A DNA stretch of 64,000 nucleotides from Chloroflexota bacterium (GTDB lineage Bacteria; Chloroflexota; UBA11872; UBA12225): the NCBI GenBank assembly GCA_947446285.1, contig CANFGH010000004.1, positions 12,926-76,925 of the forward strand. Reading direction: 5' to 3'. How positions within the stretch are numbered: position 1 is the stretch's first letter; every line of letters begins with the position of its first letter. A program made the position numbers and the translations under genes. This document shows positions 1,762 to 44,722 of this stretch, one piece after another. Under the pieces are notes generated by a model, which saw only the letters and a list, made by a program, of their open reading frames with translations, was not told the origin of the DNA and did not search any database.

Positions 1762-1803
1762 GGCGCGATGGTATCCGCATTACTGACCCAAGTGGCACCG
1801 TAA

Positions 1804-3318: not shown

Positions 3319-3356
3319 CCCGGCACGGTGAATACACCCACCGGAGGAGACCGGGA

Positions 3357-12198: not shown

Positions 12199-13608
12199 TC
12201 ACGCCTGGAAGTCGAGCAGGCGCTTGGTGCCACGTGTCTCTAGGCGGTCTGCCTGTGTGATCGAACTCGAGTACGGGGTGCTGTCCTGGCCCCGCGCAAG
12301 CGTCGTGAGAACTTCGGGTGACACCTGGACCGCCCGAGTGATTGCAGCGATTTTGGACGCGAAACCACCAGGACCGCCAAGGACATTCTCAACCGCAGTT
12401 GGGTTCGTCGCGAGCGCTTCCCGAAGCTTCGTCTCGCTCAACTGCAATGCACCATTGGCTCCCGAAGCAAGCCCCAGAGATTCGAGTGACGCCTTCAACC
12501 CATCCGCCGCGCCCTGCAGCCGACTTGCAAGCCCCGGTGAGAGCAGCGAGGGGTTCGCGGCCAAATTTCCTAGAAATGCATTGAATTTGCTGGTCAGGTG
12601 ACGGGTCGCATCGACCACCGCCGCAATATCTGGTGATACCCCGACCGAAATCGTCACCGTCGATGTGGTTGGTCCCTGCAGATACAACTGAACCCGTCCA
12701 GTCGTCGATGACGAATTCGCCAAGTCCAGGTGAACAACGTTGCTCGATGACGTCTGTTGGGACCCGTTCAAGGTGTATGACGAATCACGCGCCGCGGTCG
12801 TTGTCGTGAAACCGAGGACGGTTGCGATATTCCCACCAGTGGTGAATGTGGCAGAGGTGCCGGTGGACGTATGGGTGAGCGCAAGCGTGGAAGTTCCACC
12901 CGTCGACACTGCTTGCGCCCTGACCGGTATTCCCGCAGCGTTCACCGCGGTCGCGATTGCCTGAAGCACGCCAAGATTGGATGTGACTGTAGAGAAGTCC
13001 GGAGTGATCGTCGTCGTGGTGCCACCAGTTGTGACGGTCATGCTCGTTGACCCGGTGATAGGGGACGTGTTGGTGTCCGCGTCGACCACTCCGCCGCTCG
13101 TCAGGCTCTGACCCGCGGCTGTTTGTGAGACCGTGACTGCGTACGTTGCTACCCTGGCTTGATCAGCGACTGACGCCAGAACCCCACCGCCATGTCCGGA
13201 GATCGCAACCTTGCGCGCGCTGAACACACCGCTTGGCGTGGTGCTTGCCGTGGAACCCGAGTTCGACCGATTTCCGCTCGTCCCCGCCATGCGTGACGAC
13301 GAACCAGAAACCAGTTTCGAGGCTGATGCGCCCAACTCGCGTAGCTGGTTCAAGACGTCAGGAACGACATTCTTCAGCGCAGCCGTTGCCACATTCGTGA
13401 GGTGGTCAACGGCCACCATGACTCCGTCCCCAAGGCCGAGCTGATCTGCAGTCTTGAGGACCGCTTGAGCCCCTTGGCGATCAACCAGCGAGTTCCTCAT
13501 TGTCGGTGAGGGAATGCGGTTGCCGGGGACAAACGGGTTCCCTGCACCCGCGTATCGCGGATTCCCGACGAGCGACCGACTGCTGCTCGGCTGACCGGTA
13601 GACGGCAT
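12199..13608 (-). CDS. FliD-like (flagellar cap/hook-associated protein 2-like) Thr/Ser-rich protein
   Basis: Core and C-terminal patterns resemble FliD: YAVTVSQTAAGQSLTSG, YTLNG..SSSNVV, KFNAFLGNL and GALQLSETKLREALATNPTAVENVLGG. The N-terminus is atypical. Confidence 0.5.
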   Translation of the reverse strand: MPSTGQPSSSRSLVGNPRYAGAGNPFVPGNRIPSPTMRNSLVDRQGAQAVLKTADQLGLGDGVMVAVDHLTNVATAALKNVVPDVLNQLRELGASASKLVSGSSSRMAGTSGNRSNSGSTASTTPSGVFSARKVAISGHGGGVLASVADQARVATYAVTVSQTAAGQSLTSGGVVDADTNTSPITGSTSMTVTTGGTTTTITPDFSTVTSNLGVLQAIATAVNAAGIPVRAQAVSTGGTSTLALTHTSTGTSATFTTGGNIATVLGFTTTTAARDSSYTLNGSQQTSSSNVVHLDLANSSSTTGRVQLYLQGPTTSTVTISVGVSPDIAAVVDATRHLTSKFNAFLGNLAANPSLLSPGLASRLQGAADGLKASLESLGLASGANGALQLSETKLREALATNPTAVENVLGGPGGFASKIAAITRAVQVSPEVLTTLARGQDSTPYSSSITQADRLETRGTKRLLDFQA

Positions 13609-21839: not shown

Positions 21840-22113
21840 CGGGCCGTCCCGTGATGCTTTCGAAGAACGGAGCCATGTCGGCCTGCCACCGCGCGTTGAC
21901 TTCGCGGTTTGCCATTCCGGCCCGAGCGGCCTCGAAATCTGGCGTCTCGAGATATCCAAAAAGCATGCCGTCGGGACGCATAAAGATCGAATAGTTGTGC
22001 CACCCGGTCTCACGAAGTGCCTGCAGCATGTCGGGCCACACTTCAGCGTGGCGAATCTTGTACTCCTCAAGTCGATCCTGGCGGACTTTCAATATGAACG
22101 CAACTCGTTGCAT
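21796..22113 (-). CDS. rhaM: L-rhamnose mutarotase
   Basis: The protein begins MQRVAFILKVRQDRLEEYKIRHAEVWPDMLQALRETGWHNYSIF. A strong AAGGAGG Shine-Dalgarno sequence precedes the ATG at 22113. Confidence 0.9.
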   Translation of the reverse strand: MQRVAFILKVRQDRLEEYKIRHAEVWPDMLQALRETGWHNYSIFMRPDGMLFGYLETPDFEAARAGMANREVNARWQADMAPFFESITGRPDEAMLPLEEVFHLD

Positions 22114-22324
22114 TGCACAGCCTCCTTCGGAACGTCGCGCCTGAACACGACCACGGGACAGATGCGGATGAAACGTCCGCGACGCCCGCGAGGCAACAAG
22201 TCGCGTCAACCACATCCCGGAAACAATTTGTGCGATTTGCGGGATGTCCGTTACAGGCACGTTCCGTTCCTGCGCGACGCCCTTGACCCTTCCGCCAAAT
22301 ACCCTTTAGTGTTGCAAAAGAGTT

Positions 22325-22924
22325 ATGGGCCAAAAGGAAACCGGCGGCGCGGTGCTCGCCAAAAACGACGCCCCTACTGAACGGATTGCCGTTGCCGTCC
22401 CACGAGCCCTCGTGATCGACTATCTCAAGATCTTTGATGAACTTGAACGGGCAACGCACGCACAGCGCCAGTTCCACCATTCAGAGGCTTCGCGCCTCTC
22501 GCAGACACTGCTGAAGCAGCCCTTTCCAGAGCGACGGTTGGTGTCTCCAGCGCAGGTGCAACTTGTCATTGACCTGTCGGAACGGGGCCCGGGAACGATC
22601 GGAGAACTTGCGACCCGCCTGAAAGTAACACCATCTGCAATCAGCCTACTGGTTGACCGGATTGAGTCGCACGGGATAGTCGAGCGGGTACGGAGCACAC
22701 TTGACCGTCGGGTAGTGCAAGTACGTCTCACCGATGTCGCCACGCAGATCTCCGCCATCATGCTCCGTGTGGCGCGCGCTCAAATCGAAGAGTTCCTTGA
22801 GGCAACCCCTGCGGATGAGCGGGAGCCCTTCCTTAGAAACCTCACCCGGTTCGTGAAGACAATCGAACGGGTCGAGGATTTCATCCCCGATACACCACGA
22901 GTCACGACACCGGAGGCCACATGA
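22325..22924 (+). CDS. MarR-family transcriptional regulator
   Basis: Winged-helix region TIGELATRLKVTPSAISLLVDRIESHGIVERVRSTLDRRVVQVRLT. The gene lies directly upstream of the RND gene. Confidence 0.85.
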   Translation: MGQKETGGAVLAKNDAPTERIAVAVPRALVIDYLKIFDELERATHAQRQFHHSEASRLSQTLLKQPFPERRLVSPAQVQLVIDLSERGPGTIGELATRLKVTPSAISLLVDRIESHGIVERVRSTLDRRVVQVRLTDVATQISAIMLRVARAQIEEFLEATPADEREPFLRNLTRFVKTIERVEDFIPDTPRVTTPEAT

Positions 22925-23000
22925 GACGTGGCCCACCAGTCCAACCAACAAGGCTCCAGTCACGCACCATGAATTGCACACCGAAGGACGACCGTTCACA

Positions 23001-26000
23001 ATGACCAGCAAGACCACTCCAAACCAGCCAGCAAGTCACGAAGTTGAAAGTGCGCTGAATGACCCTTCCGGTGGCATTGGTGGCATCACCGCGCTGTCGA
23101 TCCGCAGGCCACTCTTGATGCTCATGGTCATCCTCTCGGTGATGATCTTTGGACTGATCGCCTACGGACGCCTAGGCGTTGACTTGTTTCCATCGGTGAA
23201 TTTCCCGGTGGTCAGTGTCAGCATCCCATATCCGGGTGCGAGCCCCGAGGTCGTTGAATCCCTTGTGACTCGACCGGTCGAGGACGCGGTGTCCGGCCTC
23301 GCAGACCTTGACACGATCAATTCGACGTCGTCAGAAGGCGTGGCGGTCGTGATCGTCACCTTCAAGGACAAGGCAGACCCTCAGACGGTCGCCATTGAGG
23401 TGGAAAAGCGGGTCAACGGAATTCGTGGCCAGCTACCCAATGACATCATTGCCCCCACAATCCTCAAATTCGACTTCACTGCCGCCCCCATCATCACTCT
23501 CGGACTGACGGGCGCCAACGTCACTCCTGCGCAGGCTTTCCGGATTGCAGATGAATTGGTGCGTCCGAAGCTGGAGACCACAAACGGTGTTGGTCAGGTC
23601 TCTATCTTTGGAGGCCAGCAGCGGGAAGTTCAGGTCAAGGTTGATCCAAATCGCCTTCGTGCCTACAACCTGACCCTCGCTCAGGTCTCCCAGGCACTTG
23701 GATCAGAAAACATCGACGCACCCGGTGGTCGCGTCGACGACGGCTCCCGGAACCTCAACATCCGCCTCGATGCAAGATTCCGCTCGGTCGATCAGATCAG
23801 GGATACGGTCGTACAGGCTTTGCCTACAGGCGGCACCATCCGGGTGCGTGACCTTGCTGAGGTGATCGACGGATACAAGGAACAGACCTTCCTGGCCCGC
23901 GTCAATGGGAGCCCCGGCGTCGGTATTTCCGTCTCAAAGCAATCGTCCTCAAACGTGACCCAAACAGCCGCCAACGTGCGGGCAACCCTGGCAAAAATAC
24001 GGACGACCCTCCCTGAGGGCGTCCAACTCATCGGTATTCAGGACCAGTCCGAATTCATCCAGACTTCCCTGGCTGGTGTTCAGCGAACCCTGCTGGAAGC
24101 GAACATCCTTACCGGTCTTGTCCTCCTTGCATTTCTTCATTCGTGGAGGAGCACACTGATCGTCCTGTTGGCGATCCCGACCTCGCTCATCGCCACGTTC
24201 GCCTTCATGTATTTGCAGGGGTTTACATTAAACTTCCTGACAACTCTTGCCTTGACGCTCACGGTCGGCATCCTCGTCGACGACAGTATCGTCGTGCTGG
24301 AAAACATCTTCCAGTTCCTCAAGCGCGGTGACTCCCCTCGAGTTGCCGCCGTACGGGGTCGCGCGGAAATTGGTCTCGCGGCCATCGCGATCACCTTGGT
24401 GGACGTCGTCGTCTTCGCTCCGGTAGGCCTTCTTTCGGGCCAGATCGGGCAGTTCTTCCGTCAGTTCGGGTTCACCGTTGTCGCCGCGACCCTCGCATCG
24501 CTCGCGGTCAGTTTCACACTCACTCCCTTGCTTGCGTCCCGCTGGCTTACATCGGAAGACGAACACGGAACCGGACCGCTCGCAATCTTCGGTCGCTGGT
24601 GGGACCGAGGCTTCGATCGACTCGAAGATCGGTACCGCGGGATCCTTCGCTGGTCACTCAGCCACCGTTGGGTCATCATGTTGGTGGCTGTCCTGTCATT
24701 TGCCGGGAGCATTGCCCTGCCGGCTGCAGGTCTGGTGAAGACCAGCTTCTTCCCGAACCAGGATCAGGGCACGTTCAATATCATTCTCGAACTCCCCCCG
24801 GGATCCACCCTTGACGCTACCGCGTCTGCGGTTGCTCAAATGGAAGCAGGGATCACCAAACTTCCCGAGTTCAAGGCCATCTATTCGGTCATCGGCCAAG
24901 GGGAAGGCGGAACGTCCCGCCAGTCTCGATTTGCAAATCTCCAAGTCATCCTCGTCGGGAAGCGCGAACGCACCAAATCAGTCGAACAGCTGGCACGGGA
25001 AGTCAAGGCTTTCGGTGAAGGTTTCCCCGGCCTGAAGGTTCGCGCAGGTGTTCCAGGGCCTGGAGGAGGCGCCGCGCAGCCGGTTAGCCTTCGTGTGTAT
25101 GGCGACGATCTCAAGGTCCTCAACGATCTGGCCGATAAGATCATCGGCAAGTTCCGCGAGACTGGTGGTCTCGTCGACATCACCAACAGCGGTCAAGCGG
25201 GTGCCCCGGAATACGTTGTCACGCTTGACCGGGCAAAGGCCGCTGATCTCGGTCTGTCCGCTGGCCAAGTGGCCCAGACGCTGAGGACCGCGTACGCCGG
25301 TTCTGTGGCCACAACCCTGCGTCGCGACCAGACTTCCGGAACCGCGAGTGGAGTTGACGTTCGTGTCCAGCTGACGGACGACACTCGAAAGGACATCACC
25401 CTTCTCCAGCAGGTGCCCCTCATTAGCCCTGCAAAGGGTGGCCAAGTTTACCTCGGCCAAATTGCGACCGTCGTTCCAGCTGCCGGTCCATCGCAGATCC
25501 AGCGCACCGACCGGCAGCGCGCGCTCACGATCGGTGCCAACCTCGGTGCAGGCCTGATCCTGAGTGATGTGACGAAACGGGTCAATGAAGCAATCGCTTC
25601 CGTTGAAGTTCCAGCAGGCTACCGGATCAAGATCGGCGGACAGGCTGACCAGCAGAACAACACGTTTACTGAATTCGGCAACGCGCTTCTCCTCTCGATC
25701 GCCCTTGTCTACATCCTCCTTGTAGCCCTCTACGAGTCTCTCCTCTATCCGCTGATCGTCATCGCGGCGCTGCCACTTGCCCTTGTCGGGGCAATGGGAG
25801 GGCTGGCCCTCGGACAAGAGACCCTGAATACCTTTTCGCTTATCGGGATCATCGCCCTCGTCGGCCTCGTTGGCAAGAACTCGATCCTTGTGATCGACTA
25901 CACCAACACTCTCCGGCGGGAGCAAGGGATGGGTAGATTTGACGCGCTCATGGAAGCGGGGCCACGACGGCTTCGTCCGATCCTCATGACCTCATCAGCA

Positions 26001-28637
26001 CTGATCTTCGCGCAGATCCCGCTGATGCTCAAGATCGAAGACGGCGCGGAGGTCCAGGCACCGATTGGCTGGGTCATTTTCGGCGGGATGATCAGTTCCA
26101 CCATTCTCGCCCTCGTCTTCGTCCCCACGCTGTACACACTCGTCGACGACTTCCAGAACTGGATTTTGCGGGGGTTCAAGCGCGACCGGTCGCGTGGACC
26201 TAAGGAGAAGGATATGAATGGATCGGGTTCCTCCACATCGGGCAACAACGACGAGATCGTTGTGCGTCCGGCCACGGAGAAGGTTGGCGTCGGGGCCACC
26301 GTCTCGCGCATCGCCACCACTGGCACCAACCTCGCAGTTGCAATCGTTGCCGTCGGAGGACTGTTCCTGAGTGCTTGCGGAACCCAGCCAGACACCGCCA
26401 AGGCTGCCCCGGTTGCGCCACCACTCAATGTGGCGGTCGTCGACGCTCGCAAGGAAACGGTTCGTGCGTCCGTGACCAGCAGTGGCGCGGTTGAGGCAAC
26501 GGATCAGGTTTCAGTCAGTACAAAGGTTTCGGGACGGGTCACCCGCCTCGACGCCGAAGTCGGCCAGAACGTGAAGGCCGGGCAACTGATCGCCGAACTT
26601 GATCGCGTGATCATCGAAGCCCAAGTTGCCCAAGCCGAAGCCGGACTGATGGGTGCCCAGGTCCGCTTGGGCCAACTCGAACGGGGACCACGCGCTGACG
26701 ATGTCGCCGTGGCCGCCGCCCAGCGCACCGCTGCCGAGAAGCAAGCCGACGCCGTCGCATCGCAAGCGGCTGTCGCAGAACAGTCCCTGACCACCTTTGA
26801 CGCCCAGATTGATGCCTCCACCAGCCAGGCCAACGCCTCCAAGGCGTCGGCACAGGCAGCAAAGACGCAGTCCCAAGGCGCACGTGCCCAGGCAAGCGGC
26901 GCGCGCAACCAGGCCAATGCCGCTCGCGCTCAGGCAAACGCCGCCAAAGTCCGCCTTGACCAGCTGAAGAACCCGCGTCCCGAAGACCTCGCTCTTCTTG
27001 AGAGCCAGGTCGAGACTGCCAAGATCCGACTTTCCCAGGCGTCCCAGCGTGACGAGGAAATCCGGGTTGTCCAGGCACAGGTCGAAGCCGCCCGCCTCGC
27101 CCTTCAGCAGGCGCAGGATCCGGCCCGCCCGGAACAGCTCCGGGCCGCTCAGGCACAGCTCGATGTCGCCAAGGCGACGCTGTCGAACCTCACCGAGGCT
27201 CCAGTCCGCGCTGAAGACCTTGAATCGATCCGTCTGGCGTATGAGAGCGCCGACAAGGCGTACGAAGCATCCGGTGACAGCCTGCGAATCGCCGAGAAGG
27301 CATATGACGCGGCCAAGCGCAGCCGGTCCACGTACGGCCCAGCCGTCGTGTCCGACTCGGTTCTCGCCCAGGCCGAAGGTGGTGTCGTCGCAGCTCAGGC
27401 AAATATCGAGCAAGCACGGATCCGCCGTGACACCGCCCGCGAGTCCTACAACAAGGCCCAAGCCGGCGCGACAGGTTGGGACCTCCGCAAGACCCAACTC
27501 GCCGTCGAAGCCGCGCAGGCCACCGTTGACCTGACCCGCAATCCTGACCCGGTCCGCGTCAAGAATGCCCAACTCACCCTCGAACAGGCTCAACTCAACC
27601 TCGAACTCCGGCAGCGCCAGATTGGCTTCGACCTCCAGACCGCCAAGGAAGGCCTGAAGGTTGCCGAGAACCAGCGCGCCAAGGTCGTCAACCCCGGAGA
27701 GTTCGACATCAAGTCCCTTGAAGAGGCTTCAAAGGCCGCTGAGGCCCAGGCACTCGGTGCGGAAGCTTCGGCCCAAGCCGCCGAAGCCAGCGCAGACGCC
27801 TCTGCAATCCAGGCAGAGGCTGCGGCTTCACAGGCCGGCGCCGCGGCCGCTCAGGTCAACGCTCTCTTGTCGCAGCGCACTGGGGCCGAATTCCAGATAA
27901 CAGGTGCCCGCAGTCAAGCCGACGGGGCGCGCGCAACCGCCGACCAGGCGGCTAGTGCGTACAAGTTGCGTGCGAACCCTTACACAGAGGACGACCTCAA
28001 GACCGCTCGTGTCGGTGTGGCTCAGGCCGAGGCGGCCGTCCGCCTCGGCCAAGCCAACCTTGCCGAAACCTACGTCTATGCGCCCATCGATGGCGTGATT
28101 ACCGCCCGGAACACCTCCATCGGATCACTGCTCAATCCGGGCCAACCAGTCGTCACCATCATTTCATCTGCCATCGAAATCACGGTCCCGGTTGAGGAAG
28201 CGAAGGTCGGTTCCGTCAAAGAAGGCCAAGCCGTCACGATGACCTCTCCCGCCCTTCCCGGAGTTTCGCTCGAAGGGAAGATCAACGCTGTCACTCCATC
28301 GGGTGACACCCGTAACCGTTCGTTCACCGCCCGCGTCCGCCTGGTGAAGCCCGACAGCCGACTGCGTCCGGGCATGTTCGTCAACACATCCATTGCCACC
28401 GAAGAGCGAGCGAACGCCATCGTGGTGAACCGCGAGGCCATCATCCTGACCAACGGCAAGAGCCAACTCTTCATAGTTGGAGCTGGCAACAAGGTTGAGA
28501 GCAGGGCCATCAAGGTGGGAATCTCCACGGGCAGCCTCGTGGAGGTTCTCGAAGGCGTGAGCGCCGGCGACAAGGTCATTGTCACGGGGGTCGAGGATCT
28601 CCGGGACGGACAGGTGGTCACCCCGGTATCGAAGTAG
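23001..28637 (+). CDS. RND (AcrB/HAE1-like) efflux permease fused in frame to a TM/lipobox segment and a periplasmic adaptor (MFP) with a giant coiled coil
   Basis: There is no in-frame stop from 23001 to 28637. The N-terminal ~1,070 aa are typical RND (SIRRPLLMLMV..FPSVNFPVVSV..). The segment ..LFLSAC (Cys codon 26376-26378) follows. Lipoyl, hairpin, beta-barrel and MP domains of an adaptor come next (VSGRVTRLDAEVGQNVKAGQLIAELD ... YVYAPIDGVI ...). The TTG at 22974 in the track is a less likely start than the ATG at 23001. Confidence 0.8.
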   Translation: MTSKTTPNQPASHEVESALNDPSGGIGGITALSIRRPLLMLMVILSVMIFGLIAYGRLGVDLFPSVNFPVVSVSIPYPGASPEVVESLVTRPVEDAVSGLADLDTINSTSSEGVAVVIVTFKDKADPQTVAIEVEKRVNGIRGQLPNDIIAPTILKFDFTAAPIITLGLTGANVTPAQAFRIADELVRPKLETTNGVGQVSIFGGQQREVQVKVDPNRLRAYNLTLAQVSQALGSENIDAPGGRVDDGSRNLNIRLDARFRSVDQIRDTVVQALPTGGTIRVRDLAEVIDGYKEQTFLARVNGSPGVGISVSKQSSSNVTQTAANVRATLAKIRTTLPEGVQLIGIQDQSEFIQTSLAGVQRTLLEANILTGLVLLAFLHSWRSTLIVLLAIPTSLIATFAFMYLQGFTLNFLTTLALTLTVGILVDDSIVVLENIFQFLKRGDSPRVAAVRGRAEIGLAAIAITLVDVVVFAPVGLLSGQIGQFFRQFGFTVVAATLASLAVSFTLTPLLASRWLTSEDEHGTGPLAIFGRWWDRGFDRLEDRYRGILRWSLSHRWVIMLVAVLSFAGSIALPAAGLVKTSFFPNQDQGTFNIILELPPGSTLDATASAVAQMEAGITKLPEFKAIYSVIGQGEGGTSRQSRFANLQVILVGKRERTKSVEQLAREVKAFGEGFPGLKVRAGVPGPGGGAAQPVSLRVYGDDLKVLNDLADKIIGKFRETGGLVDITNSGQAGAPEYVVTLDRAKAADLGLSAGQVAQTLRTAYAGSVATTLRRDQTSGTASGVDVRVQLTDDTRKDITLLQQVPLISPAKGGQVYLGQIATVVPAAGPSQIQRTDRQRALTIGANLGAGLILSDVTKRVNEAIASVEVPAGYRIKIGGQADQQNNTFTEFGNALLLSIALVYILLVALYESLLYPLIVIAALPLALVGAMGGLALGQETLNTFSLIGIIALVGLVGKNSILVIDYTNTLRREQGMGRFDALMEAGPRRLRPILMTSSALIFAQIPLMLKIEDGAEVQAPIGWVIFGGMISSTILALVFVPTLYTLVDDFQNWILRGFKRDRSRGPKEKDMNGSGSSTSGNNDEIVVRPATEKVGVGATVSRIATTGTNLAVAIVAVGGLFLSACGTQPDTAKAAPVAPPLNVAVVDARKETVRASVTSSGAVEATDQVSVSTKVSGRVTRLDAEVGQNVKAGQLIAELDRVIIEAQVAQAEAGLMGAQVRLGQLERGPRADDVAVAAAQRTAAEKQADAVASQAAVAEQSLTTFDAQIDASTSQANASKASAQAAKTQSQGARAQASGARNQANAARAQANAAKVRLDQLKNPRPEDLALLESQVETAKIRLSQASQRDEEIRVVQAQVEAARLALQQAQDPARPEQLRAAQAQLDVAKATLSNLTEAPVRAEDLESIRLAYESADKAYEASGDSLRIAEKAYDAAKRSRSTYGPAVVSDSVLAQAEGGVVAAQANIEQARIRRDTARESYNKAQAGATGWDLRKTQLAVEAAQATVDLTRNPDPVRVKNAQLTLEQAQLNLELRQRQIGFDLQTAKEGLKVAENQRAKVVNPGEFDIKSLEEASKAAEAQALGAEASAQAAEASADASAIQAEAAASQAGAAAAQVNALLSQRTGAEFQITGARSQADGARATADQAASAYKLRANPYTEDDLKTARVGVAQAEAAVRLGQANLAETYVYAPIDGVITARNTSIGSLLNPGQPVVTIISSAIEITVPVEEAKVGSVKEGQAVTMTSPALPGVSLEGKINAVTPSGDTRNRSFTARVRLVKPDSRLRPGMFVNTSIATEERANAIVVNREAIILTNGKSQLFIVGAGNKVESRAIKVGISTGSLVEVLEGVSAGDKVIVTGVEDLRDGQVVTPVSK

Positions 28638-28657
28638 GGACCTCTCCAGACCAGCAA

Positions 28658-28693
28658 GCCGAAGGCCCGGTCATGCGTGACCGGGCCTTCGGC
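28658..28693. terminator. Bidirectional stem-loop terminator between convergent genes
   Basis: GCCGAAGGCCCGGTCA-tgcg-TGACCGGGCCTTCGGC forms a 16-bp perfect stem, followed by ATTTC. Confidence 0.6.
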
Positions 28694-28696
28694 ATT

Positions 28697-28951
28697 TCAA
28701 GCGTCCGCAGGGTCGCCGTCAGGTGACGCAAGCAGATAGATGCCAAGAGCCGCCAAAGCCAAGAGCGCGGACAGGACAACGGGCCCGCCGTGCCTGCCGA
28801 CAAATGCCACGACGACACTTGCAGTAACCAAAACCCCGATGGCCCAATTGGCAATCTGTCTCATCGTGAACCCGGCAACCAACGGCTCGGGATTGGCCTC
28901 GCCGTCTCGCAACGGGTCACTTGGGTCGGGAGTGCGATCATCCAACGTCAT
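28697..28951 (-). CDS. Small membrane protein (two TM helices), hypothetical
   Basis: The protein is MTLDDRTPDPSDPLRDGEANPEPLVAGFTMRQIANWAIGVLVTASVVVAFVG..LLALAALGIYLL. Its start overlaps the upstream stop (ATGA). Confidence 0.4.
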   Translation of the reverse strand: MTLDDRTPDPSDPLRDGEANPEPLVAGFTMRQIANWAIGVLVTASVVVAFVGRHGGPVVLSALLALAALGIYLLASPDGDPADA

Positions 28952-29562
28952 GCCAGTCCTATCAGGATGAACGCCACGGCGCCGGCATTGGTCACGTAAT
29001 ACTGGGCAAGGCACGCACCCGGAGGCCCCTCGGCGCGTGAACTCTGGTAGTCTGCAGCACTCAGCACACGTGCCAAAGACACGCTATCGAACCGTTCACG
29101 AGGCCCCGCCTCGCGATCGCCAACGACAAACGCCTCTACTCCTTGAAAAACCGCGTCGGTAGGCAACCACGACCGTGCAACAGTCCCGGCTTCGGCAATC
29201 GTCCAGTCATCCGGTTCGACATCGACCGCATTCGAACTCTGCCTTTCACGACCAACTGAGACCTGGCGCACACGTCCCCCTGGAAGGACATCGGCCACGA
29301 TCCGACCCGGAGGCATCGTCCACGCCAGGCGGAGTTCTCCCCGGTCTCCAGTCGCCTGGAGTGGAGCATGGCCGGAAGCGCGTTGTTCCCACGTCGCAAG
29401 CAATCCACCGATACGCCCGCTCAGCGTTGCAGGTTCAGCAAATGGCATGCCTTCAACGGCAATGCCAATTCCAATCCCCGCAATGCCACTCCCAGCAACG
29501 ATTCCGGCCGTCACAAGGCCGTCACGTCGCGACCACCTGCCCAGTCGCGAGGCTTCAGGCAT
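28948..29562 (-). CDS. Hypothetical membrane-anchored protein
   Basis: One N-terminal TM segment (IVAGSGIAGIGIGIAV) and a C-terminal hydrophobic end. No family recognised. Confidence 0.4.
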   Translation of the reverse strand: MPEASRLGRWSRRDGLVTAGIVAGSGIAGIGIGIAVEGMPFAEPATLSGRIGGLLATWEQRASGHAPLQATGDRGELRLAWTMPPGRIVADVLPGGRVRQVSVGRERQSSNAVDVEPDDWTIAEAGTVARSWLPTDAVFQGVEAFVVGDREAGPRERFDSVSLARVLSAADYQSSRAEGPPGACLAQYYVTNAGAVAFILIGLA

Positions 29563-30031
29563 GGGCCCCACCCTCAAAGTCAGTCGCCCCAATCAGTCCG
29601 ATGACTTGACGCGATGCCACGTCAACTGATGGGTGAAGATTGGTCGCCTTCATGAACTTCATTGTCATGCTGGCCTTCGCCAGGGGATGAGCCCCGACCA
29701 CGTCGCAAAGGTAGACGCCATCGAGGCCCGTACCGCGTGATCGCCGGGCCGAGACCGGGCGCCACTCGTCTGCCTTGATACCGTGCGTGCTTTCCAGGTG
29801 TTCCCGCAAACGCGACTGCGGTTGGTCAAAACGCCCTAATGAAACTCCCGGCAAGGACCACTCGCCAGATGGATCAGCCACCAACAGGACGGCACCGTCG
29901 GAGCCTCGGACCTTACCCACCGCACGAACGGCAACCTTCTCATTGAGAAGCCACATCGTGTGAACGCGTCTACGTTCGATAAAGACCCACGTCCAGACCC
30001 ACGCAACGGCACAAACCGCCATCCGAACCAT
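29555..30031 (-). CDS. Hypothetical protein with an N-terminal TM helix and a degenerate Nudix-like segment
   Basis: LPGVSLGRFDQPQSRLREHLESTHGI loosely resembles a Nudix box. This is a weak call and the start is uncertain. Confidence 0.3.
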   Translation of the reverse strand: MVRMAVCAVAWVWTWVFIERRRVHTMWLLNEKVAVRAVGKVRGSDGAVLLVADPSGEWSLPGVSLGRFDQPQSRLREHLESTHGIKADEWRPVSARRSRGTGLDGVYLCDVVGAHPLAKASMTMKFMKATNLHPSVDVASRQVIGLIGATDFEGGAHA

Positions 30032-30068
30032 GAAAGTCAAGGAGCGCAACTCGGCGATTCGGATGCCG

Positions 30069-31202
30069 TCAGAAACTCGTCGATAGTGGCACGGTACGGC
30101 CATCCCGGGCCGCGACCGGGCACGCGTTCATGATTTCAAGAACGTGGCGAGCATGAGCCGCCGTGAGGACGGGTTCGCGTCCCTCACGGATCGCCCCAAC
30201 CAGATCCTCAACCCCAATAGCCTGCTTGGCTCGGTCAAGCCGTGTCATCGGGGACATCCAGCCTCGCACACCGTGGTCCGCATCATCCAGATAAATCTCG
30301 AAAGGGAGACCACCGGCACGATCTCCACCCGGACTCCCGACGGAAAGCGATCCCTTGCTTCCGAAGATCTCCATCGATGGACCATTCGCCGCCTTCACGC
30401 AGTAACTGCTGTCCACAACTGCGAAGGTCGCGTTTCCAAAGTCCAGCGTGATGAGGTAGTTGTCCGGCACACCCGTGTGGATCTCCTTGCCGTCAAAGGC
30501 ACCTGACCGAACGGTCCGGACGGCCTCCGAGATGCCCGCCAGGCAACTCACCGCCCGAGCAGGTCCCAGGATCCCCGTGATCATTGTCAGTCCATGCACC
30601 CCCATGTCGAGCAGCGGACCCGCACCTTCCTGATGGAACCAAGACGGGTCATGGTCGCGATATTGGAAGTACTCCGGCCCACCATGAGATGACCGAACGC
30701 GTGCGAGTGACACCTTCCCTAGGGCACCCGAACCGACAAGGCGTCGCATCTCCCGCATTTCAGGCCGCAGCATGTGAATTGGCGACGCAGAAATGTAGAG
30801 ACCGCGCGCAGTGGCCTCGGTCATCAAGGTTGAAACCTCCTCGACCGTCGAGGCAAGCGGCTTCTGGGAATAGACATGGAGGCCAGCCTTCAAGGCTGCA
30901 AGGTTGACCGAAAAATGCGCCGGAATGCTTGCCAGATCGACAAGCGCGTCGACCTTTTCAGCCTGTGCAAATGCAATCAGCTTGTCAACATCAGTGAAGA
31001 CGTGGCGAACACCAAACCTCGCCGCCTGGGTCGCCGCCCAATCCGCCCGGACGTCGCACACGGCAACGATCTCGACAGCCGACATTTGGGCGATCTGAGG
31101 CAGGTACTGGTCGACAGCAATGCCACCCAGACCAACGATCACTAGACGGACGTTTCGCGACGGGTTCCCTGCCATCTTGCGCTCCAAATTCGACGGTGTC
31201 AC
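30069..31202 (-). CDS. Gfo/Idh/MocA-family oxidoreductase
   Basis: N-terminal VRLVIVGLGGIAVDQYLP Rossmann fold and the motif QKPLA in a 377-aa protein. Confidence 0.9.
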   Translation of the reverse strand: MTPSNLERKMAGNPSRNVRLVIVGLGGIAVDQYLPQIAQMSAVEIVAVCDVRADWAATQAARFGVRHVFTDVDKLIAFAQAEKVDALVDLASIPAHFSVNLAALKAGLHVYSQKPLASTVEEVSTLMTEATARGLYISASPIHMLRPEMREMRRLVGSGALGKVSLARVRSSHGGPEYFQYRDHDPSWFHQEGAGPLLDMGVHGLTMITGILGPARAVSCLAGISEAVRTVRSGAFDGKEIHTGVPDNYLITLDFGNATFAVVDSSYCVKAANGPSMEIFGSKGSLSVGSPGGDRAGGLPFEIYLDDADHGVRGWMSPMTRLDRAKQAIGVEDLVGAIREGREPVLTAAHARHVLEIMNACPVAARDGRTVPLSTSF

Positions 31203-33882: not shown

Positions 33883-35082
33883 CTACTGCGCGGGCGCGAT
33901 AGCCCGCACTGTCGCGACACGCCAGTTCACCGTCACCACCCACGGGGTGACAACGAGGGCAAGGCACCCGAACGCAATGAACGGTGCAACGGTCGCCGCC
34001 CCAAAGACCTCGGCCAACTGACCGCTCCCAACCTCGCCCGCCACGACGCCAAGCGAGTACGCCGCGTAGAAGACGCCGTACGCCATGCCTCGTTCCGCAG
34101 GGGAGGAGTGGTCAGCAATGTACGACGTGACTGCCGGGAACAGCAGCCCGAAGCCGCAGCCGAAAAGTGCCATCGCACCGTAGACCCCCGCAGTGGTGGC
34201 GGTCACCGCCAATCCAAGCAAGCTGACACCTATCAACGACAATCCACCAGCCAGTGGAAGAAGCCGTCCAAACCTGTTCACCAACCATGGCGACGGTCTT
34301 GCGAAAAGCACTAGCGACACAAGCGCATACACGCTGAACGCAGTACCGCGAACGCTCGCGGATGCCCCACGCGATTCGAGTAACAGGGGCAAGTGAACAA
34401 CCAGTGTGCCTATGCCAGCAGTCCATGCAAGACATGCGACGTTAGCGACGATCAGTTGGGGGCGGCTCAGGATTGCCCCAAGTGACACCTTCGAGGCCCC
34501 AGCGACCGGATCATTCGGGTCCGCCGACACCTCAACGTTCCTGCCAAGGAAAGCCACGAGTGCACTTGCTGCGAGCATCAGCACGGCAACCGCCTGGAAA
34601 ACCGCAACCGACCCGAACACTGTCCCAGCGATGCCTGCGACCGCCGGTCCGATCACGGCGGCAATCGCGATGAACGCACCCGCAGTACCCATCGCCTGTG
34701 CGCGACGGGCAGGAACTACGCTGTCACTCAGCAACGTGAAGGCACCTGGCGAAAGGACCGCCTGCCCAAGCCCATGCAAGGCGCGTACTGCCCCAAACTG
34801 CCAGGGTTCGGACACCACGCCGTAGAGTGCCAGTGCAATGGCAGAGGCTAGTAACCCTCCAACAAGGGTTCGCTGCCGGCCAATTCCAATCAGAACGAAC
34901 CCGGCTGCAAGGTTCCCAATGAGGTTGGCCGCATCGTACGTGGCAACGGTGACCGCAGCGACCAAAGGATCCGCGCCAAGTTGCCGGGCGAACGGTGCCA
35001 CGATCGGGAACTGGCAAAAAAGGTCAAAAAAGGCGACAAAGACCACCAGCCGTGCGACACCAGATCCAGACATTTCCGGCAA
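33883..35082 (-). CDS. MFS transporter
   Basis: 399 aa with 12 hydrophobic helices. Confidence 0.85.
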   Translation of the reverse strand: MPEMSGSGVARLVVFVAFFDLFCQFPIVAPFARQLGADPLVAAVTVATYDAANLIGNLAAGFVLIGIGRQRTLVGGLLASAIALALYGVVSEPWQFGAVRALHGLGQAVLSPGAFTLLSDSVVPARRAQAMGTAGAFIAIAAVIGPAVAGIAGTVFGSVAVFQAVAVLMLAASALVAFLGRNVEVSADPNDPVAGASKVSLGAILSRPQLIVANVACLAWTAGIGTLVVHLPLLLESRGASASVRGTAFSVYALVSLVLFARPSPWLVNRFGRLLPLAGGLSLIGVSLLGLAVTATTAGVYGAMALFGCGFGLLFPAVTSYIADHSSPAERGMAYGVFYAAYSLGVVAGEVGSGQLAEVFGAATVAPFIAFGCLALVVTPWVVTVNWRVATVRAIAPAQ

Positions 35083-43816: not shown

Positions 43817-44722
43817 GTGAGCACCGAAGGCGGGGCCGCCGGGGCGGCAATATCTCTACGCGCAACCCTTGCGAACTCCAAGTGGTTGGGCACTGCATGC
43901 CCCAAATGCAGCGAAGGGTTTGCGGTTGCCGACCAGGTAGTCCTGTGCCCGTCATGTTTCTCAGCGCACCACGCTGCTTGCTGGCGAGAGAACGGGAATA
44001 CGTGCGCCAAGGACCAGACGCCTGGTCGCATCATCGAGCCCCGTGGGCGCGGTGCCTCGCCCGCATCTGAGGCTCCCGCTCCGGTTCAGGCTCCAGCTTC
44101 GGCTGGGCCAGTCGCAGCACTCGCAGCAGTTGCACGACCCGCCGCTCCGGCCAAGCCTGCTGCACCCGCCGCCCCGGTGAAGGGTGCCGGCCCCGCAGTG
44201 CGCGACGCCAAGGGCCTCCGTCCGATCGATGGTGTGCGTGCTCGAATTCAATCAGCGACGAATGACCTTGCGCCCGTCTTTGGCACCGCCATCGACGAAG
44301 TTACCGTGACCGTTCCACCTGAAAATCTTCCCGAAGCGGCACGCAGGCTGAAGGAAACCGACGGGCTGAAGTTCGATTACCTGAGATGCCTGAGCGGCGT
44401 TGATTACCAGTCAGACGGCATCGAGGTGGTCTACCACTTGTTCAGCACCCGGCTGGCACAGAAGTGCGTTCTCAAAACCCGTTTGGCAGCCGAGGGCGAC
44501 GCCGTTGGGACGGTTACCACGGTCTGGGCAGGTGCCGACTGGCACGAACGAGAAACCGCCGAAATGTTCAACATCCGGTTTGAGGGGCACCCATACCCCG
44601 AACCACTTCTTTTGGAACGCGATGACCAAGGCACCATCGTTCCCGGACCGGTTCTTCTTAAGCGCTTCAAGTTGCGCCCCAAGGAACCGCCCGCTCAGTA
44701 TGGCTTTCCCGAGCAAGAGTAG
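43817..44722 (+). CDS. nuoC: NADH-quinone oxidoreductase subunit C with an N-terminal zinc-finger (prokaryotic RING-like) domain and a Pro/Ala linker
   Basis: The C-terminal ~160 aa are canonical NuoC (FDYLRCLSGVDY...WHERETAEMFNIRFEGHP). The N-terminus has CPKC-x12-CPSC-x3-HH-x2-CW-x7-C. Confidence 0.85.
   Translation: MSTEGGAAGAAISLRATLANSKWLGTACPKCSEGFAVADQVVLCPSCFSAHHAACWRENGNTCAKDQTPGRIIEPRGRGASPASEAPAPVQAPASAGPVAALAAVARPAAPAKPAAPAAPVKGAGPAVRDAKGLRPIDGVRARIQSATNDLAPVFGTAIDEVTVTVPPENLPEAARRLKETDGLKFDYLRCLSGVDYQSDGIEVVYHLFSTRLAQKCVLKTRLAAEGDAVGTVTTVWAGADWHERETAEMFNIRFEGHPYPEPLLLERDDQGTIVPGPVLLKRFKLRPKEPPAQYGFPEQE

What the first reader, a model, noticed from the sequence alone, without database searches (positions are those of the whole stretch)
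23001..28637. Single-polypeptide RND pump plus periplasmic adaptor fusion (about 1,880 aa) under a MarR regulator
A complete 12-TM AcrB-like permease continues without any in-frame stop into a further hydrophobic helix ending in a lipobox-like LFLSAC. A full membrane-fusion/adaptor protein follows, with lipoyl, alpha-hairpin, beta-barrel and membrane-proximal domains. The topology is consistent. The RND C-terminus is cytoplasmic, so a 13th TM helix would place the adaptor outside the membrane. Pump and adaptor are normally separate proteins assembling at 3:6. A covalent 1:1 fusion would change assembly rules and could indicate a distinct efflux architecture, possibly without an outer-membrane channel. 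I am not aware of this fusion being described.
Basis: partly seen in the sequence, partly recalled or inferred. Interest (0 to 1): 0.8.

Follow-up and report, generated by a model that had tools for sequence, protein, structure and literature searches.

The report
Natural RND pump–adaptor gene fusion
A group of uncultured Chloroflexota bacteria encodes a drug-efflux pump and its normally separate adaptor protein as one 1,878-residue protein. The join keeps an intact internal start site and a lipoprotein signal, so the gene may yield both a tethered and a free adaptor.

Summary
Window 23001-28637 (+) is one uninterrupted 1,878-codon ORF. It holds a complete AcrB/MdtB-type RND permease (aa 30-1048), a variable, probably cytoplasmic linker, a 13th hydrophobic helix ending in the lipobox LSAC (Cys1126), and a 753-aa four-domain periplasmic adaptor. 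A MarR gene lies upstream.

It is not a sequencing error. The same fused ORF occurs in 11 protein clusters (about 200 sequences, 97% down to 52% identity) from independent assemblies. On a neighbour-joining tree the fused proteins form one clade. Their sister group has the same gene order, but with a stop codon and a 47-nt spacer between the genes.

The new point is the junction. Every fused relative with DNA keeps a ribosome-binding site plus in-frame ATG (window AAGGAG 26202-26207, ATG 26214-26216), basic residues, a hydrophobic core and the lipobox cysteine. That is an entire lipoprotein-adaptor start module embedded in the ORF.

Best reading: a selected fusion that makes a tethered (or LspA-cleaved) adaptor, plus free adaptor from the internal start. 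No outer-membrane channel gene is nearby, and the adaptor's helical domain is very large (about 485 aa).

The held literature describes only engineered fusions of this type. GenBank copies carry generic names. I file it as a new variant of a known kind, of moderate to high interest.

The parts
22212..22247 (.). Inverted repeat ACATCCCGGAAA-N12-TTTGCGGGATGT upstream of marR. It is a candidate operator only.
   Evidence: the repeat finder. Palindromes of different sequence lie upstream of marR in L163 and L167. Binding was not tested.
22325..22924 (+). MarR-family regulator gene, 76 nt upstream of the pump ORF on the same strand.
   Evidence: Pfam MarR 46.7 bits. A MarR gene directly precedes the fused ORF in L162, L163, L164, L165 and L167. 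A MarR-like ORF also precedes the unfused sister operon in L004.
23001..28637 (+). Fused RND permease-adaptor ORF, 1,878 aa plus stop.
   Evidence: Full-length fused homologues are P0001-P0011. The exact sequence is in NCBI.
23088..26144 (+). RND permease of HAE-1 (AcrB/MdtB) type, aa 30-1048, with 12 TM helices and two large outward loops.
   Evidence: Pfam ACR_tran E 3e-266. The best solved relative is MdtB 9lyq at 434 bits. The AF2 model has pLDDT of about 80-90. D427, D428, K959, R990, R992 and T997 are invariant.
26184..26309 (+). Variable linker rich in Gly, Ser, Asp and Pro, aa 1062-1103, presumed cytoplasmic.
   Evidence: Its length and sequence vary among orthologues and all indels are in frame. 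Its GC3 is coding-like. AF2 pLDDT is below 50.
26202..26207 (+). Internal Shine-Dalgarno sequence AAGGAG, 6 nt before the internal ATG.
   Evidence: The linker ATG carries a strong SD in 7 of 8 fully delimited fused ORFs and a weak GGAG in the eighth (L165). Only one other in-frame ATG among about 190 has a strong SD.
26214..26216 (+). Internal in-frame ATG (Met1072). It is the potential start of an 807-aa stand-alone prolipoprotein adaptor.
   Evidence: A linker Met lies at the equivalent place in all 15 fused sequences checked, in the contexts KEKDM, EEDGM, KEDGM, TEGEM, KEGNM, KEGDM, PETIM and KEETM.
26310..26375 (+). 13th hydrophobic helix, which is the h-region of the embedded signal peptide (aa 1104-1125).
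   Evidence: Kyte-Doolittle maximum 1.83. A basic residue precedes it in all orthologues.
26367..26378 (+). Lipobox L-S-A-C. Cys1126 is followed by Gly.
   Evidence: The Cys is invariant in 15 of 15 fused sequences. The boxes are LSAC, LTAC, LSGC, LAGC, LTGC, FSAC and ATAC.
26376..28634 (+). Mature adaptor (periplasmic adaptor, or membrane-fusion protein), 753 aa.
   Evidence: TIGR01730 at 172 bits. The AF2 model has mean pLDDT 82.7. Foldseek matches AcrA, MexA, MacA, BesA, CusB and EmrA, with E down to 9e-15.
26607..28064 (+). Giant alpha-helical domain of the adaptor (mature residues 78-563). It has two helices of about 90 residues plus a distal helical bundle. Helices start at repeated P-x-x-E-D-L/V motifs.
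   Evidence: AF2 secondary structure. The motifs are visible in the translation.
28071..28631 (+). C-terminal beta domains of the adaptor: the second half of the lipoyl domain, the beta-barrel and the membrane-proximal domain.
   Evidence: Pfam HlyD_D23 and HlyD_3. AF2 strands at 566-752 with pLDDT 88-96.

Best explanation
This is a genuine, selectively maintained gene fusion. An ancestral Chloroflexota operon read marR, then RND permease, then stop, a short spacer, a ribosome-binding site and ATG, a lipoprotein signal peptide, and a giant adaptor. It lost the permease stop codon, and the spacer became an in-frame linker.

Translation from ATG 23001 therefore gives a 1,878-aa precursor. In it the former signal peptide acts as a 13th, N-in/C-out transmembrane helix. 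That places the adaptor on the outer face of the cytoplasmic membrane next to its own pump protomer.

The internal ribosome-binding site, the ATG and the full lipoprotein signal (basic residues, hydrophobic core, lipobox Cys) are all conserved. I therefore infer that the same gene also yields free lipoprotein adaptor from Met1072. I also infer that the lipobox Cys is lipid-modified, and that LspA may cut the fusion there.

The net result would be one adaptor per pump protomer made and inserted in cis, plus extra adaptor in trans. That satisfies the usual 3 pump : 6 adaptor geometry, with its two non-equivalent adaptor positions.

The pump is proton-driven and AcrB-like. The hexameric adaptor, with its helical domain of about 485 residues, would form an exit duct through the wall zone of a single-membrane cell without a TolC-type channel. 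MarR probably represses the operon until a ligand binds it.

**Shown:** ORF continuity, domain content, conservation, single origin, and conservation of the start module and lipobox.
**Inferred:** topology, internal initiation, lipidation or cleavage, stoichiometry, duct function, and regulation.
For: **The fusion is real and widespread.**
- Eleven full-length fused clusters (1,795-1,888 aa, 97% to 52% identity, about 200 member sequences) come from ENA, Logan, JGI and NCBI.
- Cluster members include RLT56999.1, MEI8219164.1, MBU6286759.1, MFM7197372.1 and HEX2034529.1.
- DNA of 11 loci shows the open junction.

**Single origin.**
- All fused proteins form one clade on an NJ tree of the RND part. 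Its sister is the unfused group P0015-18.
- In that sister (L004) the permease ends in TGA. Then come 47 nt, AGGAGG-N9-ATG, and MKRLPSK...LLLPAC leading a 709-aa adaptor.

**The frame is under selection.**
- The distance from the RND end to the linker Met is 27, 34, 36, 41, 47 or 50 codons in different lineages. All differences are in frame.
- The linker has coding-like GC3 (0.79 pooled) that broadly follows each genome's own GC3.

**The start module is conserved.**
- A strong SD precedes the linker ATG in 7 of 8 complete ORFs. Only one other in-frame ATG among about 190 has a strong SD.
- The amino acids encoded there vary while the GGAG core stays.
- The lipobox Cys is invariant and the preceding basic residues are conserved.

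**Adaptor and pump.**
- The adaptor fold rests on AF2 (pLDDT 82.7) and Foldseek matches to AcrA, MexA and MacA.
- Proton-relay positions are invariant.

**Context.**
- None of the 48 window ORFs is an OEP/TolC or a second adaptor. Nor is any gene in the lists for L001 and L162-L167.
- Chloroflexota are increasingly regarded as lacking an outer membrane (abstract of bioRxiv 10.1101/2025.08.19.671072).
- Engineered RND-adaptor fusions assemble into complexes, as cited in PMC4754349.
Against: - There are no protein-level data. All sequences come from metagenome assemblies of uncultured organisms.
- Internal initiation and LspA cleavage of an internal lipobox are inferences. I found no precedent for LspA acting on an internal signal in the held literature.
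- The stretch between the internal Met and the hydrophobic core is long (roughly 15 to 40 residues) and often acidic. That is atypical for a signal peptide and suggests this segment now serves mainly as a linker.
- One orthologue (L165) has only a weak GGAG.
- An independent singleton fusion (P0229/L168) has no internal start at all.
- AF2 gave no confident structure for aa 1064-1200.
- The tree is a neighbour-joining tree without support values.
- Absence of an outer-membrane factor was tested only in local neighbourhoods.
Confidence: 0.5

Rival explanations
1. Permanent covalent tether only. The 1,878-aa protein is the sole product and stays uncut, so the pump works with one adaptor per protomer (3:3). 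The internal SD/ATG would be a relic or a translational pause site. The lipobox Cys would be lipidated at most, not cleaved.
For: - The region between the internal Met and the hydrophobic core has lengthened and become acidic relative to the unfused sister's 7-residue n-region. That is expected if it now serves as a linker.
- The singleton fusion P0229/L168 lacks any internal start.
- The frame has been maintained through several in-frame indels.
Against: - The SD core is conserved at nucleotide level while the encoded residues change. That is hard to explain for a relic at about 50% protein divergence.
- All solved RND assemblies I know of use six adaptors per trimer. PMC4446572 describes the 3:6:3 models as dominant and PMC4754349 supports 3:6:3.
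- The lipobox is invariant.
Confidence: 0.2
2. Polyprotein. The fusion is only a precursor. Lgt and LspA process the internal lipobox quantitatively and release an ordinary lipoprotein adaptor, leaving a permease that carries a C-terminal tail plus the uncleaved signal helix. The fusion would serve only to couple synthesis and membrane insertion, and there would be no internal initiation.
For: - The complete n-h-lipobox module is conserved and Cys-Gly is invariant.
- The helix has the same N-in/C-out orientation as a signal peptide (inference from RND topology).
- Lipoprotein adaptors are the rule in related Chloroflexota, for example P0126, P0129, P0133 and P0243.
Against: - I found no precedent for LspA cleavage of an internal signal.
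- This model gives 1:1 output and so does not by itself supply six adaptors per trimer.
- It does not explain the conserved SD-ATG.
Confidence: 0.2
3. Artefact. A 1-nt sequencing or assembly error near 26150-26205 merged two ordinary adjacent genes.
For: A TAA in the +2 frame at 26201-26203 sits immediately before AAGGAG-ATG.
Against: - The same open junction occurs in 11 independently assembled loci and about 200 database sequences.
- The TAA is absent in L083 (95% identity), where the frame is still open.
- The linker has coding-like GC3.
Confidence: 0.01
4. A decaying or neutral read-through. The stop codon was lost by accident and the fused product is non-functional or merely tolerated.
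For: Singleton fusions with junk-like or start-less linkers exist in other lineages (P0306, P0229). This shows that accidents of this kind do happen where the gene order is RND then adaptor.
Against: - The fused clade spans about 50% protein divergence with both halves intact, functional residues invariant and every indel in frame.
- No split revertant appears within the clade.
Confidence: 0.04

Closest known systems
Tripartite RND pumps of Gram-negative bacteria (AcrAB-TolC, MexAB-OprM, MdtABC)
   Same: - A proton-driven HAE-1-type permease. Its best solved relatives are MdtB, AdeB/AdeJ-type pumps, MexB and AcrB.
- A four-domain lipoprotein-type adaptor with the AcrA/MexA/MacA fold.
- A MarR-type repressor next to the operon.
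   Different: - The permease and adaptor are one ORF, and the gene order is permease then adaptor.
- There is an extra 13th helix.
- The adaptor's helical domain is about 485 residues. By recollection the AcrA hairpin is roughly 70-80 residues.
- No outer-membrane factor gene lies nearby.
- The host phylum is regarded as single-membraned.
Unfused sister operon in Chloroflexota (L004, contig JBHOQS010000006.1: P0016 permease plus a 709-aa lipoprotein adaptor represented by P0243)
   Same: - The order is a MarR-like gene, then the permease, then a long lipoprotein adaptor.
- The permease is 54-55% identical.
- The adaptor has the same long helical architecture and the same helix-start motifs.
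   Different: The permease ends in TGA. A 47-nt untranslated spacer follows, and the adaptor has an ordinary 7-residue n-region.
Engineered RND-adaptor fusion constructs used to stabilise AcrAB(Z)-TolC for electron microscopy (cited in PMC4754349 and PMC4446572)
   Same: The adaptor is covalently linked to a pump component, and the resulting complexes assemble with six adaptors per trimer.
   Different: Those constructs are man-made and reported to be only partly active (PMC4446572). This fusion is natural, conserved and uses a retained signal peptide as the connecting helix.
Systems with two adaptor positions filled differently: TriABC (two adaptor genes) and the fused dimeric adaptor DSY0927 of Desulfitobacterium hafniense (PMC4446572)
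   Same: They show that the two non-equivalent adaptor positions per pump protomer can be filled by distinct or covalently linked polypeptides. The best sequence match of this adaptor in the PDB is the TriA-TriB fusion 6vej.
   Different: Those cases join an adaptor to an adaptor, not an adaptor to the pump.
Adaptors of Gram-positive bacteria (YknX with YknYZ, MesE/ComB-type)
   Same: - The adaptors work without an outer membrane and have very large hairpins (PMC4446572).
- Precomputed Pfam YknX_C hits lie on the fused proteins.
   Different: Those adaptors partner ABC transporters and are separate proteins.

Membership tests
RND superfamily, HAE-1-type permease (AcrB/MdtB-like) | Full-length match to the AcrB/AcrD/AcrF family profile | tested here: met
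   Pfam ACR_tran, E 3e-266, profile positions 2-1020 of 1021. PDB phmmer gives MdtB at 434 bits and AcrB at 362 bits.
RND superfamily, HAE-1-type permease (AcrB/MdtB-like) | Twelve TM helices with two large outward loops after TM1 and TM7 | tested here: met
   Hydropathy peaks. The AF2 secondary structure has pLDDT of about 80-90.
RND superfamily, HAE-1-type permease (AcrB/MdtB-like) | Proton-relay residues in TM4, TM10 and TM11 (AcrB D407, D408, K940, R971, T978) | tested here: met
   D427, D428, K959, R990, R992 and T997 are invariant in 48 sequences, within the motifs VDDSIVV, GKN and RLRPILMT. The mapping to AcrB numbering is from my knowledge of the AcrB sequence, not from an alignment run here.
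RND superfamily, HAE-1-type permease (AcrB/MdtB-like) | Score above NCBIfam's curated cut-off for a named multidrug RND subfamily | tested here: not met
   RND_permease_2 scores 797.9 bits against a cut-off of 1250, and TIGR00915 scores 569.6 against 940. It is a divergent member, so substrate class cannot be assigned.
Periplasmic adaptor / membrane-fusion protein family (TC 8.A.1) | Match to the RND adaptor profile above the curated cut-off | tested here: met
   TIGR01730 RND_mfp scores 172 bits against a cut-off of 94.9.
Periplasmic adaptor / membrane-fusion protein family (TC 8.A.1) | Nested four-domain fold: membrane-proximal, beta-barrel, lipoyl, alpha-helical hairpin | tested here: met
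   AF2 gives beta segments at mature residues 17-75 and 566-752 flanking helices 78-563. Foldseek matches AcrA, MexA, MacA, BesA and CusB at probability 1.00.
Periplasmic adaptor / membrane-fusion protein family (TC 8.A.1) | A separate polypeptide encoded by its own gene | tested here: not met
   No stop codon lies between the permease and the adaptor in the window or in 10 related loci. This is the feature that makes it a variant.
Periplasmic adaptor / membrane-fusion protein family (TC 8.A.1) | Works with an outer-membrane factor (TolC/OprM family) | tested here: not met
   No OEP-family hit in any of the 48 window ORFs or in the gene lists of L001 and L162-L167. Only neighbourhoods were tested, not whole genomes.
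Bacterial lipoproteins (Lgt/LspA substrates) | Lipobox [LVI][ASTVI][GAS]C preceded by a hydrophobic core and basic residues | tested here: met
   The window has LSAC. The Cys is invariant in 15 of 15 fused sequences; 13 boxes fit the consensus and two deviate at position -3 (FSAC, ATAC). A basic residue precedes the hydrophobic core in the aligned orthologues.
Bacterial lipoproteins (Lgt/LspA substrates) | Signal peptide at the N-terminus of the precursor | tested here: inconclusive
   This holds only for a product started at Met1072 (SD and ATG conserved). In the full-length product the signal is internal.
Bacterial lipoproteins (Lgt/LspA substrates) | Diacylglyceryl modification and cleavage before the Cys | not testable with these tools
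   It needs lipid labelling, globomycin treatment and mass spectrometry.
MarR-regulated efflux operon | MarR-family winged-helix regulator adjacent to the pump and conserved in synteny | tested here: met
   Pfam MarR. The same arrangement occurs in L162, L163, L164, L165 and L167.
MarR-regulated efflux operon | The regulator binds an operator at the pump promoter and responds to a ligand | not tested
   There is only a candidate inverted repeat at 22212-22247. Its sequence is not conserved in other loci.

The most novel reading that the evidence does not exclude
One gene with two programmed outputs hard-wires the assembly of an efflux machine.
- The full-length product carries an adaptor tethered in cis. 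It would fill one of the two non-equivalent adaptor positions on each pump protomer.
- The conserved internal start supplies a free lipoprotein adaptor for the second position.
- Together they give a 3:6 complex without a second gene.
- The six giant helical domains would form a TolC-independent duct through the wall of a single-membrane bacterium.

If true, this would be a distinct RND efflux architecture. It would also be a natural counterpart of the fusions that structural biologists had to engineer.
Probability: 0.3. Interest if true: 0.8.

Novelty: new variant of a known kind. Interest (0 to 1): 0.6.

Why it matters
RND pumps and their adaptors are textbook separate subunits. How many adaptors bind, in what order, and what adaptors do where there is no outer membrane are long-standing questions.

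- **A stable fusion says the pairing is obligate.** A natural fusion kept across about 50% sequence divergence shows that the adaptor is an obligate partner of the pump even without a TolC-type channel.
- **It offers a ready-made structural target.** The single chain is a natural construct for structural work on assembly.
- **It makes a prediction that can be tested directly.** The embedded start site and lipoprotein signal predict a tethered adaptor plus a free one. If that holds, it is a compact genetic way to set subunit stoichiometry.
- **It exposes an annotation gap.** About 200 database copies are labelled as either "permease subunit" or "adaptor subunit", never as both.

Tried and rejected
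- **AF2 of aa 1-1200.** The aim was to see whether helix 13 packs against the pump. The RND part folded well, but aa 1064-1200 had pLDDT below 50 and almost no secondary structure. Only 11 alignment rows cover that region, so the result is uninformative and not evidence against a helix.
- **Rfam scan of the window.** No hits.
- **Promoter and terminator scan of 22000-29000.** Nothing rose above the shuffle expectation. In particular there is no promoter-like site near the junction, so a free adaptor would have to come from internal translation initiation, not from a separate transcript.
- **The search for related loci on genomes and metagenomes.** They yielded only three close loci (L002, L082, L083) plus the useful unfused L004 and L005.
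- **No DNA for P0011 and P0122.** P0122 starts 60 nt from a contig end, so it cannot show whether that orthologue is split.
- **Literature.** Eight full-text searches and five papers found only engineered RND-adaptor fusions and a fused dimeric adaptor. The 2009 review by Zgurskaya et al. on adaptor diversity is not held, so a mention there cannot be excluded.
- **SD strength at the permease start versus the internal start.** There was no consistent difference across loci, so I dropped that argument.
- **Sequencing error and pseudogene readings.** I considered both and rejected them (see rivals).
Full report
**1. Observation**

The window carries one stop-free frame from 22974 (TTG) or 23001 (ATG) to 28637 on the + strand. 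Relatives start at the ATG (MTSK...), which gives 1,878 aa.

- Pfam places a complete AcrB-family permease at aa 30-1048 (E 3e-266). It places adaptor domains at 1170-1201 and 1664-1794.
- NCBIfam TIGR01730, the RND adaptor model, scores 172 bits against a cut-off of 94.9.
- Hydropathy shows the normal RND pattern plus one extra hydrophobic segment at 1104-1125. That segment ends in LFLSAC, with Cys1126.
TAA lies at 26201-26203 in the +2 frame, AAGGAG at 26202-26207, and an in-frame ATG at 26214-26216.
- A MarR gene lies at 22325-22924.

**2. Not an artefact**

A search with the whole protein found eleven full-length fused clusters. They are 1,795-1,888 aa long, 97% down to 52% identical, and hold about 200 member sequences from ENA, Logan, JGI and NCBI.

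- The window protein itself is on record in NCBI. Its 90% cluster has 142 members, including RLT56999.1 and MEI8219164.1. Other clusters include MBU6286759.1, MFM7197372.1 and HEX2034529.1.
- GenBank calls these either "permease subunit" or "periplasmic adaptor subunit".
- I obtained DNA for ten further loci: L082, L083, L002, L162, L166, L164, L163, L167, L165 and L001. The junction is open in all of them.
- The +2-frame TAA is absent in L083, which is 95% identical.
- The linker has coding-like third-position G+C, 0.79 pooled. It is higher in the high-GC3 genomes (L163, L167) and lower in the window, broadly following each genome.

**3. Origin**

- On a neighbour-joining tree of the permease parts, all fused proteins form one clade. 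Its sister is the unfused group P0015-P0018. The tree has no support values.
- In the sister locus L004 the order is a MarR-like gene, then the permease (P0016, 1,100 aa, ending in TGA), then 47 nt with AGGAGG 9 nt before ATG. A 709-aa adaptor follows, beginning MKRLPSKVAGLAAAGVALAVLLLPAC, which is an ordinary lipoprotein signal.
- L005, a Lake Baikal Chloroflexi MAG, has the same order with separate genes.
- The fusion therefore arose once, by loss of the stop codon and conversion of the spacer into an in-frame linker.
- The distance from the end of the permease to the linker Met is 27, 34, 36, 41, 47 or 50 codons in different lineages. Several indels have thus occurred, all in frame.
- No member of the clade is split. 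P0013 and P0014 look like fused genes truncated by frameshifts or deletions.

**4. The junction**

The linker is poorly conserved in sequence and length, but four things are kept in all lineages examined.

- **An in-frame ATG preceded by a Shine-Dalgarno core.**
  - It reads AAGGAG(G) or GGAGG at 5-6 nt in ten of eleven loci. L165 has only GGAG.
  - Within eight fully delimited ORFs, this is the only in-frame ATG with a strong SD in six of them. One other such ATG exists among about 190, in L001.
  - The amino acids encoded there differ (KEKDM, EEDGM, KEDGM, TEGEM, KEGNM, KEGDM, PETIM, KEETM). Conservation is therefore at the nucleotide level.
- **One or more basic residues just before the hydrophobic segment.**
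- **The hydrophobic segment itself.**
- **The lipobox.** Its Cys is invariant and is followed by Gly.

The whole translation-initiation and lipoprotein-export module of the ancestral adaptor gene has therefore been retained inside the fused ORF. By contrast, the stretch between the Met and the hydrophobic core has grown from 7 residues in the sister to roughly 15-40 and is often acidic. That fits a role as a linker.

**5. The two halves**

*Permease.*
- Its closest solved relatives are MdtB (434 bits), Acinetobacter AdeB/AdeJ-type pumps, MexB and AcrB.
- The TM4 Asp-Asp pair, the TM10 Lys and the TM11 Arg and Thr are invariant in 48 aligned sequences. The correspondence to AcrB D407, D408, K940, R971 and T978 is from my knowledge of AcrB.
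- It falls below NCBIfam's cut-offs for named multidrug subfamilies. Substrate class is therefore open.

*Adaptor.*
- The mature adaptor has 753 residues.
- An AF2 model from a 40-sequence alignment has mean pLDDT 82.7. Beta domains lie at mature residues 17-75 and 566-752, and an all-helical insert lies at 78-563.
- That insert has a 26-residue basal pair and two helices of about 90 residues (107-198 and 445-533, pLDDT only 50-75). A distal bundle of seven helices follows.
- Foldseek matches AcrA, MexA, MacA, BesA, CusB and EmrA at probability 1.00. The best sequence matches in the PDB are the TriA-TriB construct 6vej, ZneB and MexJ.
- Stand-alone adaptors of 560-870 aa, with the same repeated P-x-x-E-D-L/V helix starts and lipoprotein signals, are common in Chloroflexota.

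**6. Context**

- MarR precedes the fused gene in the window and in L162, L163, L164, L165 and L167. The gaps are short or the genes overlap, so co-transcription is likely.
- None of the 48 window ORFs, and none of the genes listed for the related loci, is an outer-membrane factor or a second adaptor.
- The window is chromosomal. It carries a nuo operon, a methionyl-tRNA synthetase gene and an fpg gene.
- The phylum is increasingly regarded as lacking a true outer membrane (abstract of bioRxiv 10.1101/2025.08.19.671072).

**7. Mechanism**

*Shown:* a conserved single ORF, the domain content, a single origin, and the retained start and lipoprotein module.

*Inferred:*
- Both RND termini are cytoplasmic (established for AcrB). 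The former signal peptide therefore crosses the membrane N-in/C-out as helix 13 and puts the adaptor outside, tethered beside its own protomer.
- The Pro/Ala-rich stretch after Cys1126 (GTQPDTAKAAPVAPP) would be a flexible tether like that of AcrA.
- I think it most likely (about 0.5) that the gene has two outputs: the fused precursor, and free prolipoprotein adaptor from Met1072. That would supply the six adaptors per trimer seen in known assemblies (PMC4446572, PMC4754349).
- Whether Lgt and LspA also lipidate and cut the internal lipobox cannot be decided here.
- The rivals are a permanent 3:3 tether (0.2), a fully processed polyprotein (0.2), neutral read-through (0.04) and artefact (0.01).
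- If the long helices are collinear, the helical stalk would be about 17 nm long, with a further bundle beyond it. This uses 1.5 Å per residue and is an inference from secondary structure only. By recollection that is far longer than the hairpins of known RND adaptors. It suggests a duct through the wall zone rather than a bridge to TolC.

**8. Comparison with the known, and novelty**

- The parts are ordinary members of the RND and adaptor families.
- The defining departure is that they are one polypeptide, joined through a retained signal peptide, in a lineage without an obvious outer-membrane partner.
- In the held literature I found only engineered RND-adaptor fusions (PMC4754349, PMC4446572). 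I also found a natural adaptor-adaptor fusion (DSY0927) and the two-adaptor TriABC system.
- A large phylogenetic survey of HAE-1 pumps excluded Chloroflexi (PMC10872679).
- The 2009 review of adaptor diversity is not held. Prior mention elsewhere cannot be excluded, and the sequences themselves are already public.
- I therefore rate this as a new variant of a known kind.

**9. Other fusions seen**

The exhaustive representative search and the adaptor search turned up three singleton cases.

- **P0229/L168.** Its nearest relatives are unfused, and its linker has no internal start.
- **P0306.** Its linker is rich in Arg, Cys and Trp and looks like translated spacer.
- **P0329.** An adaptor is joined to a permease that lacks TM1, which is the reverse order.

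Accidental fusions do therefore occur. The clade studied here is the only one I saw that is conserved.

**10. Limits**

- All data are metagenomic and there is no protein-level evidence.
- AF2 was uninformative for the linker and helix 13.
- The tree has no support values.
- Absence of an outer-membrane factor was tested only locally.

Noticed in passing
L168 (contig Ga0606626_0069858), gene 3-2705; protein P0229: This is an independent RND-adaptor fusion in another lineage. Its closest permease (P0260) and adaptor (P0186, 63% identity) are separate proteins. Its linker keeps a lipobox (LLIGC) but has no in-frame SD-ATG. It is a single contig, so an assembly error is not excluded.
   Followed up: partly
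Protein P0306 (1,504 aa; from the representative library, no DNA held): An RND permease is followed by an Arg/Cys/Trp-rich stretch of about 45 aa that looks like translated intergenic spacer. A lipoprotein signal (…ALALALAACGG) and an adaptor of about 400 aa follow. It is possibly a recent read-through or an error.
   Followed up: partly
Protein P0329 (1,300 aa; from a low-G+C organism, no DNA held): This is a reverse-order fusion. The adaptor's beta-barrel and membrane-proximal domains (Pfam HlyD_D23 at 21-219) are joined directly to an RND permease from profile position 34 onward, so the first TM helix of the pump is missing.
   Followed up: partly
window 22212-22247: A 12-nt inverted repeat (ACATCCCGGAAA-N12-TTTGCGGGATGT) lies in the divergent intergenic region between a rhaM-like gene and marR. 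It is a candidate operator. Related loci have palindromes of different sequence.
   Followed up: partly
window 43817-44722 (+): In the nuo operon, the NuoC-like (30-kDa subunit) ORF appears to carry an N-terminal Prok-RING_1 zinc-finger domain (aa 25-66, E 1e-9). The start codon was not checked.
   Followed up: no
window 12199-13608 (-): This ORF has a FliD (flagellar cap) C-terminal domain, which suggests that this Chloroflexota lineage is flagellated.
   Followed up: no
window 382-4700 and 33883-35082, 54303-55571: Five MFS transporter genes lie in 64 kb, three of them adjacent at the left end of the window.
   Followed up: no
Cluster of P0001: Several GenBank members of the 90% cluster are labelled as Proteobacteria/Pseudomonadota bacterium (for example NDB72367.1, NBT03675.1), while others are labelled Chloroflexota. 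This is probably mis-binning of freshwater MAG contigs.
   Followed up: no
window 26607-28064 (adaptor helical domain): Helices begin at a recurring motif: RGPRADDV, NPRPEDL, DPARPEQL, APVRAEDL, NPDPVRV, NPGEFDI and NPYTEDDL. The same repeat is tandemly multiplied in stand-alone Chloroflexota adaptors such as P0126 and P0129.
   Followed up: partly
window 28948-30103 (-): Two ORFs (214 and 182 aa) directly downstream of the pump on the opposite strand have no Pfam match. L162 has three unannotated small ORFs at the same place.
   Followed up: no
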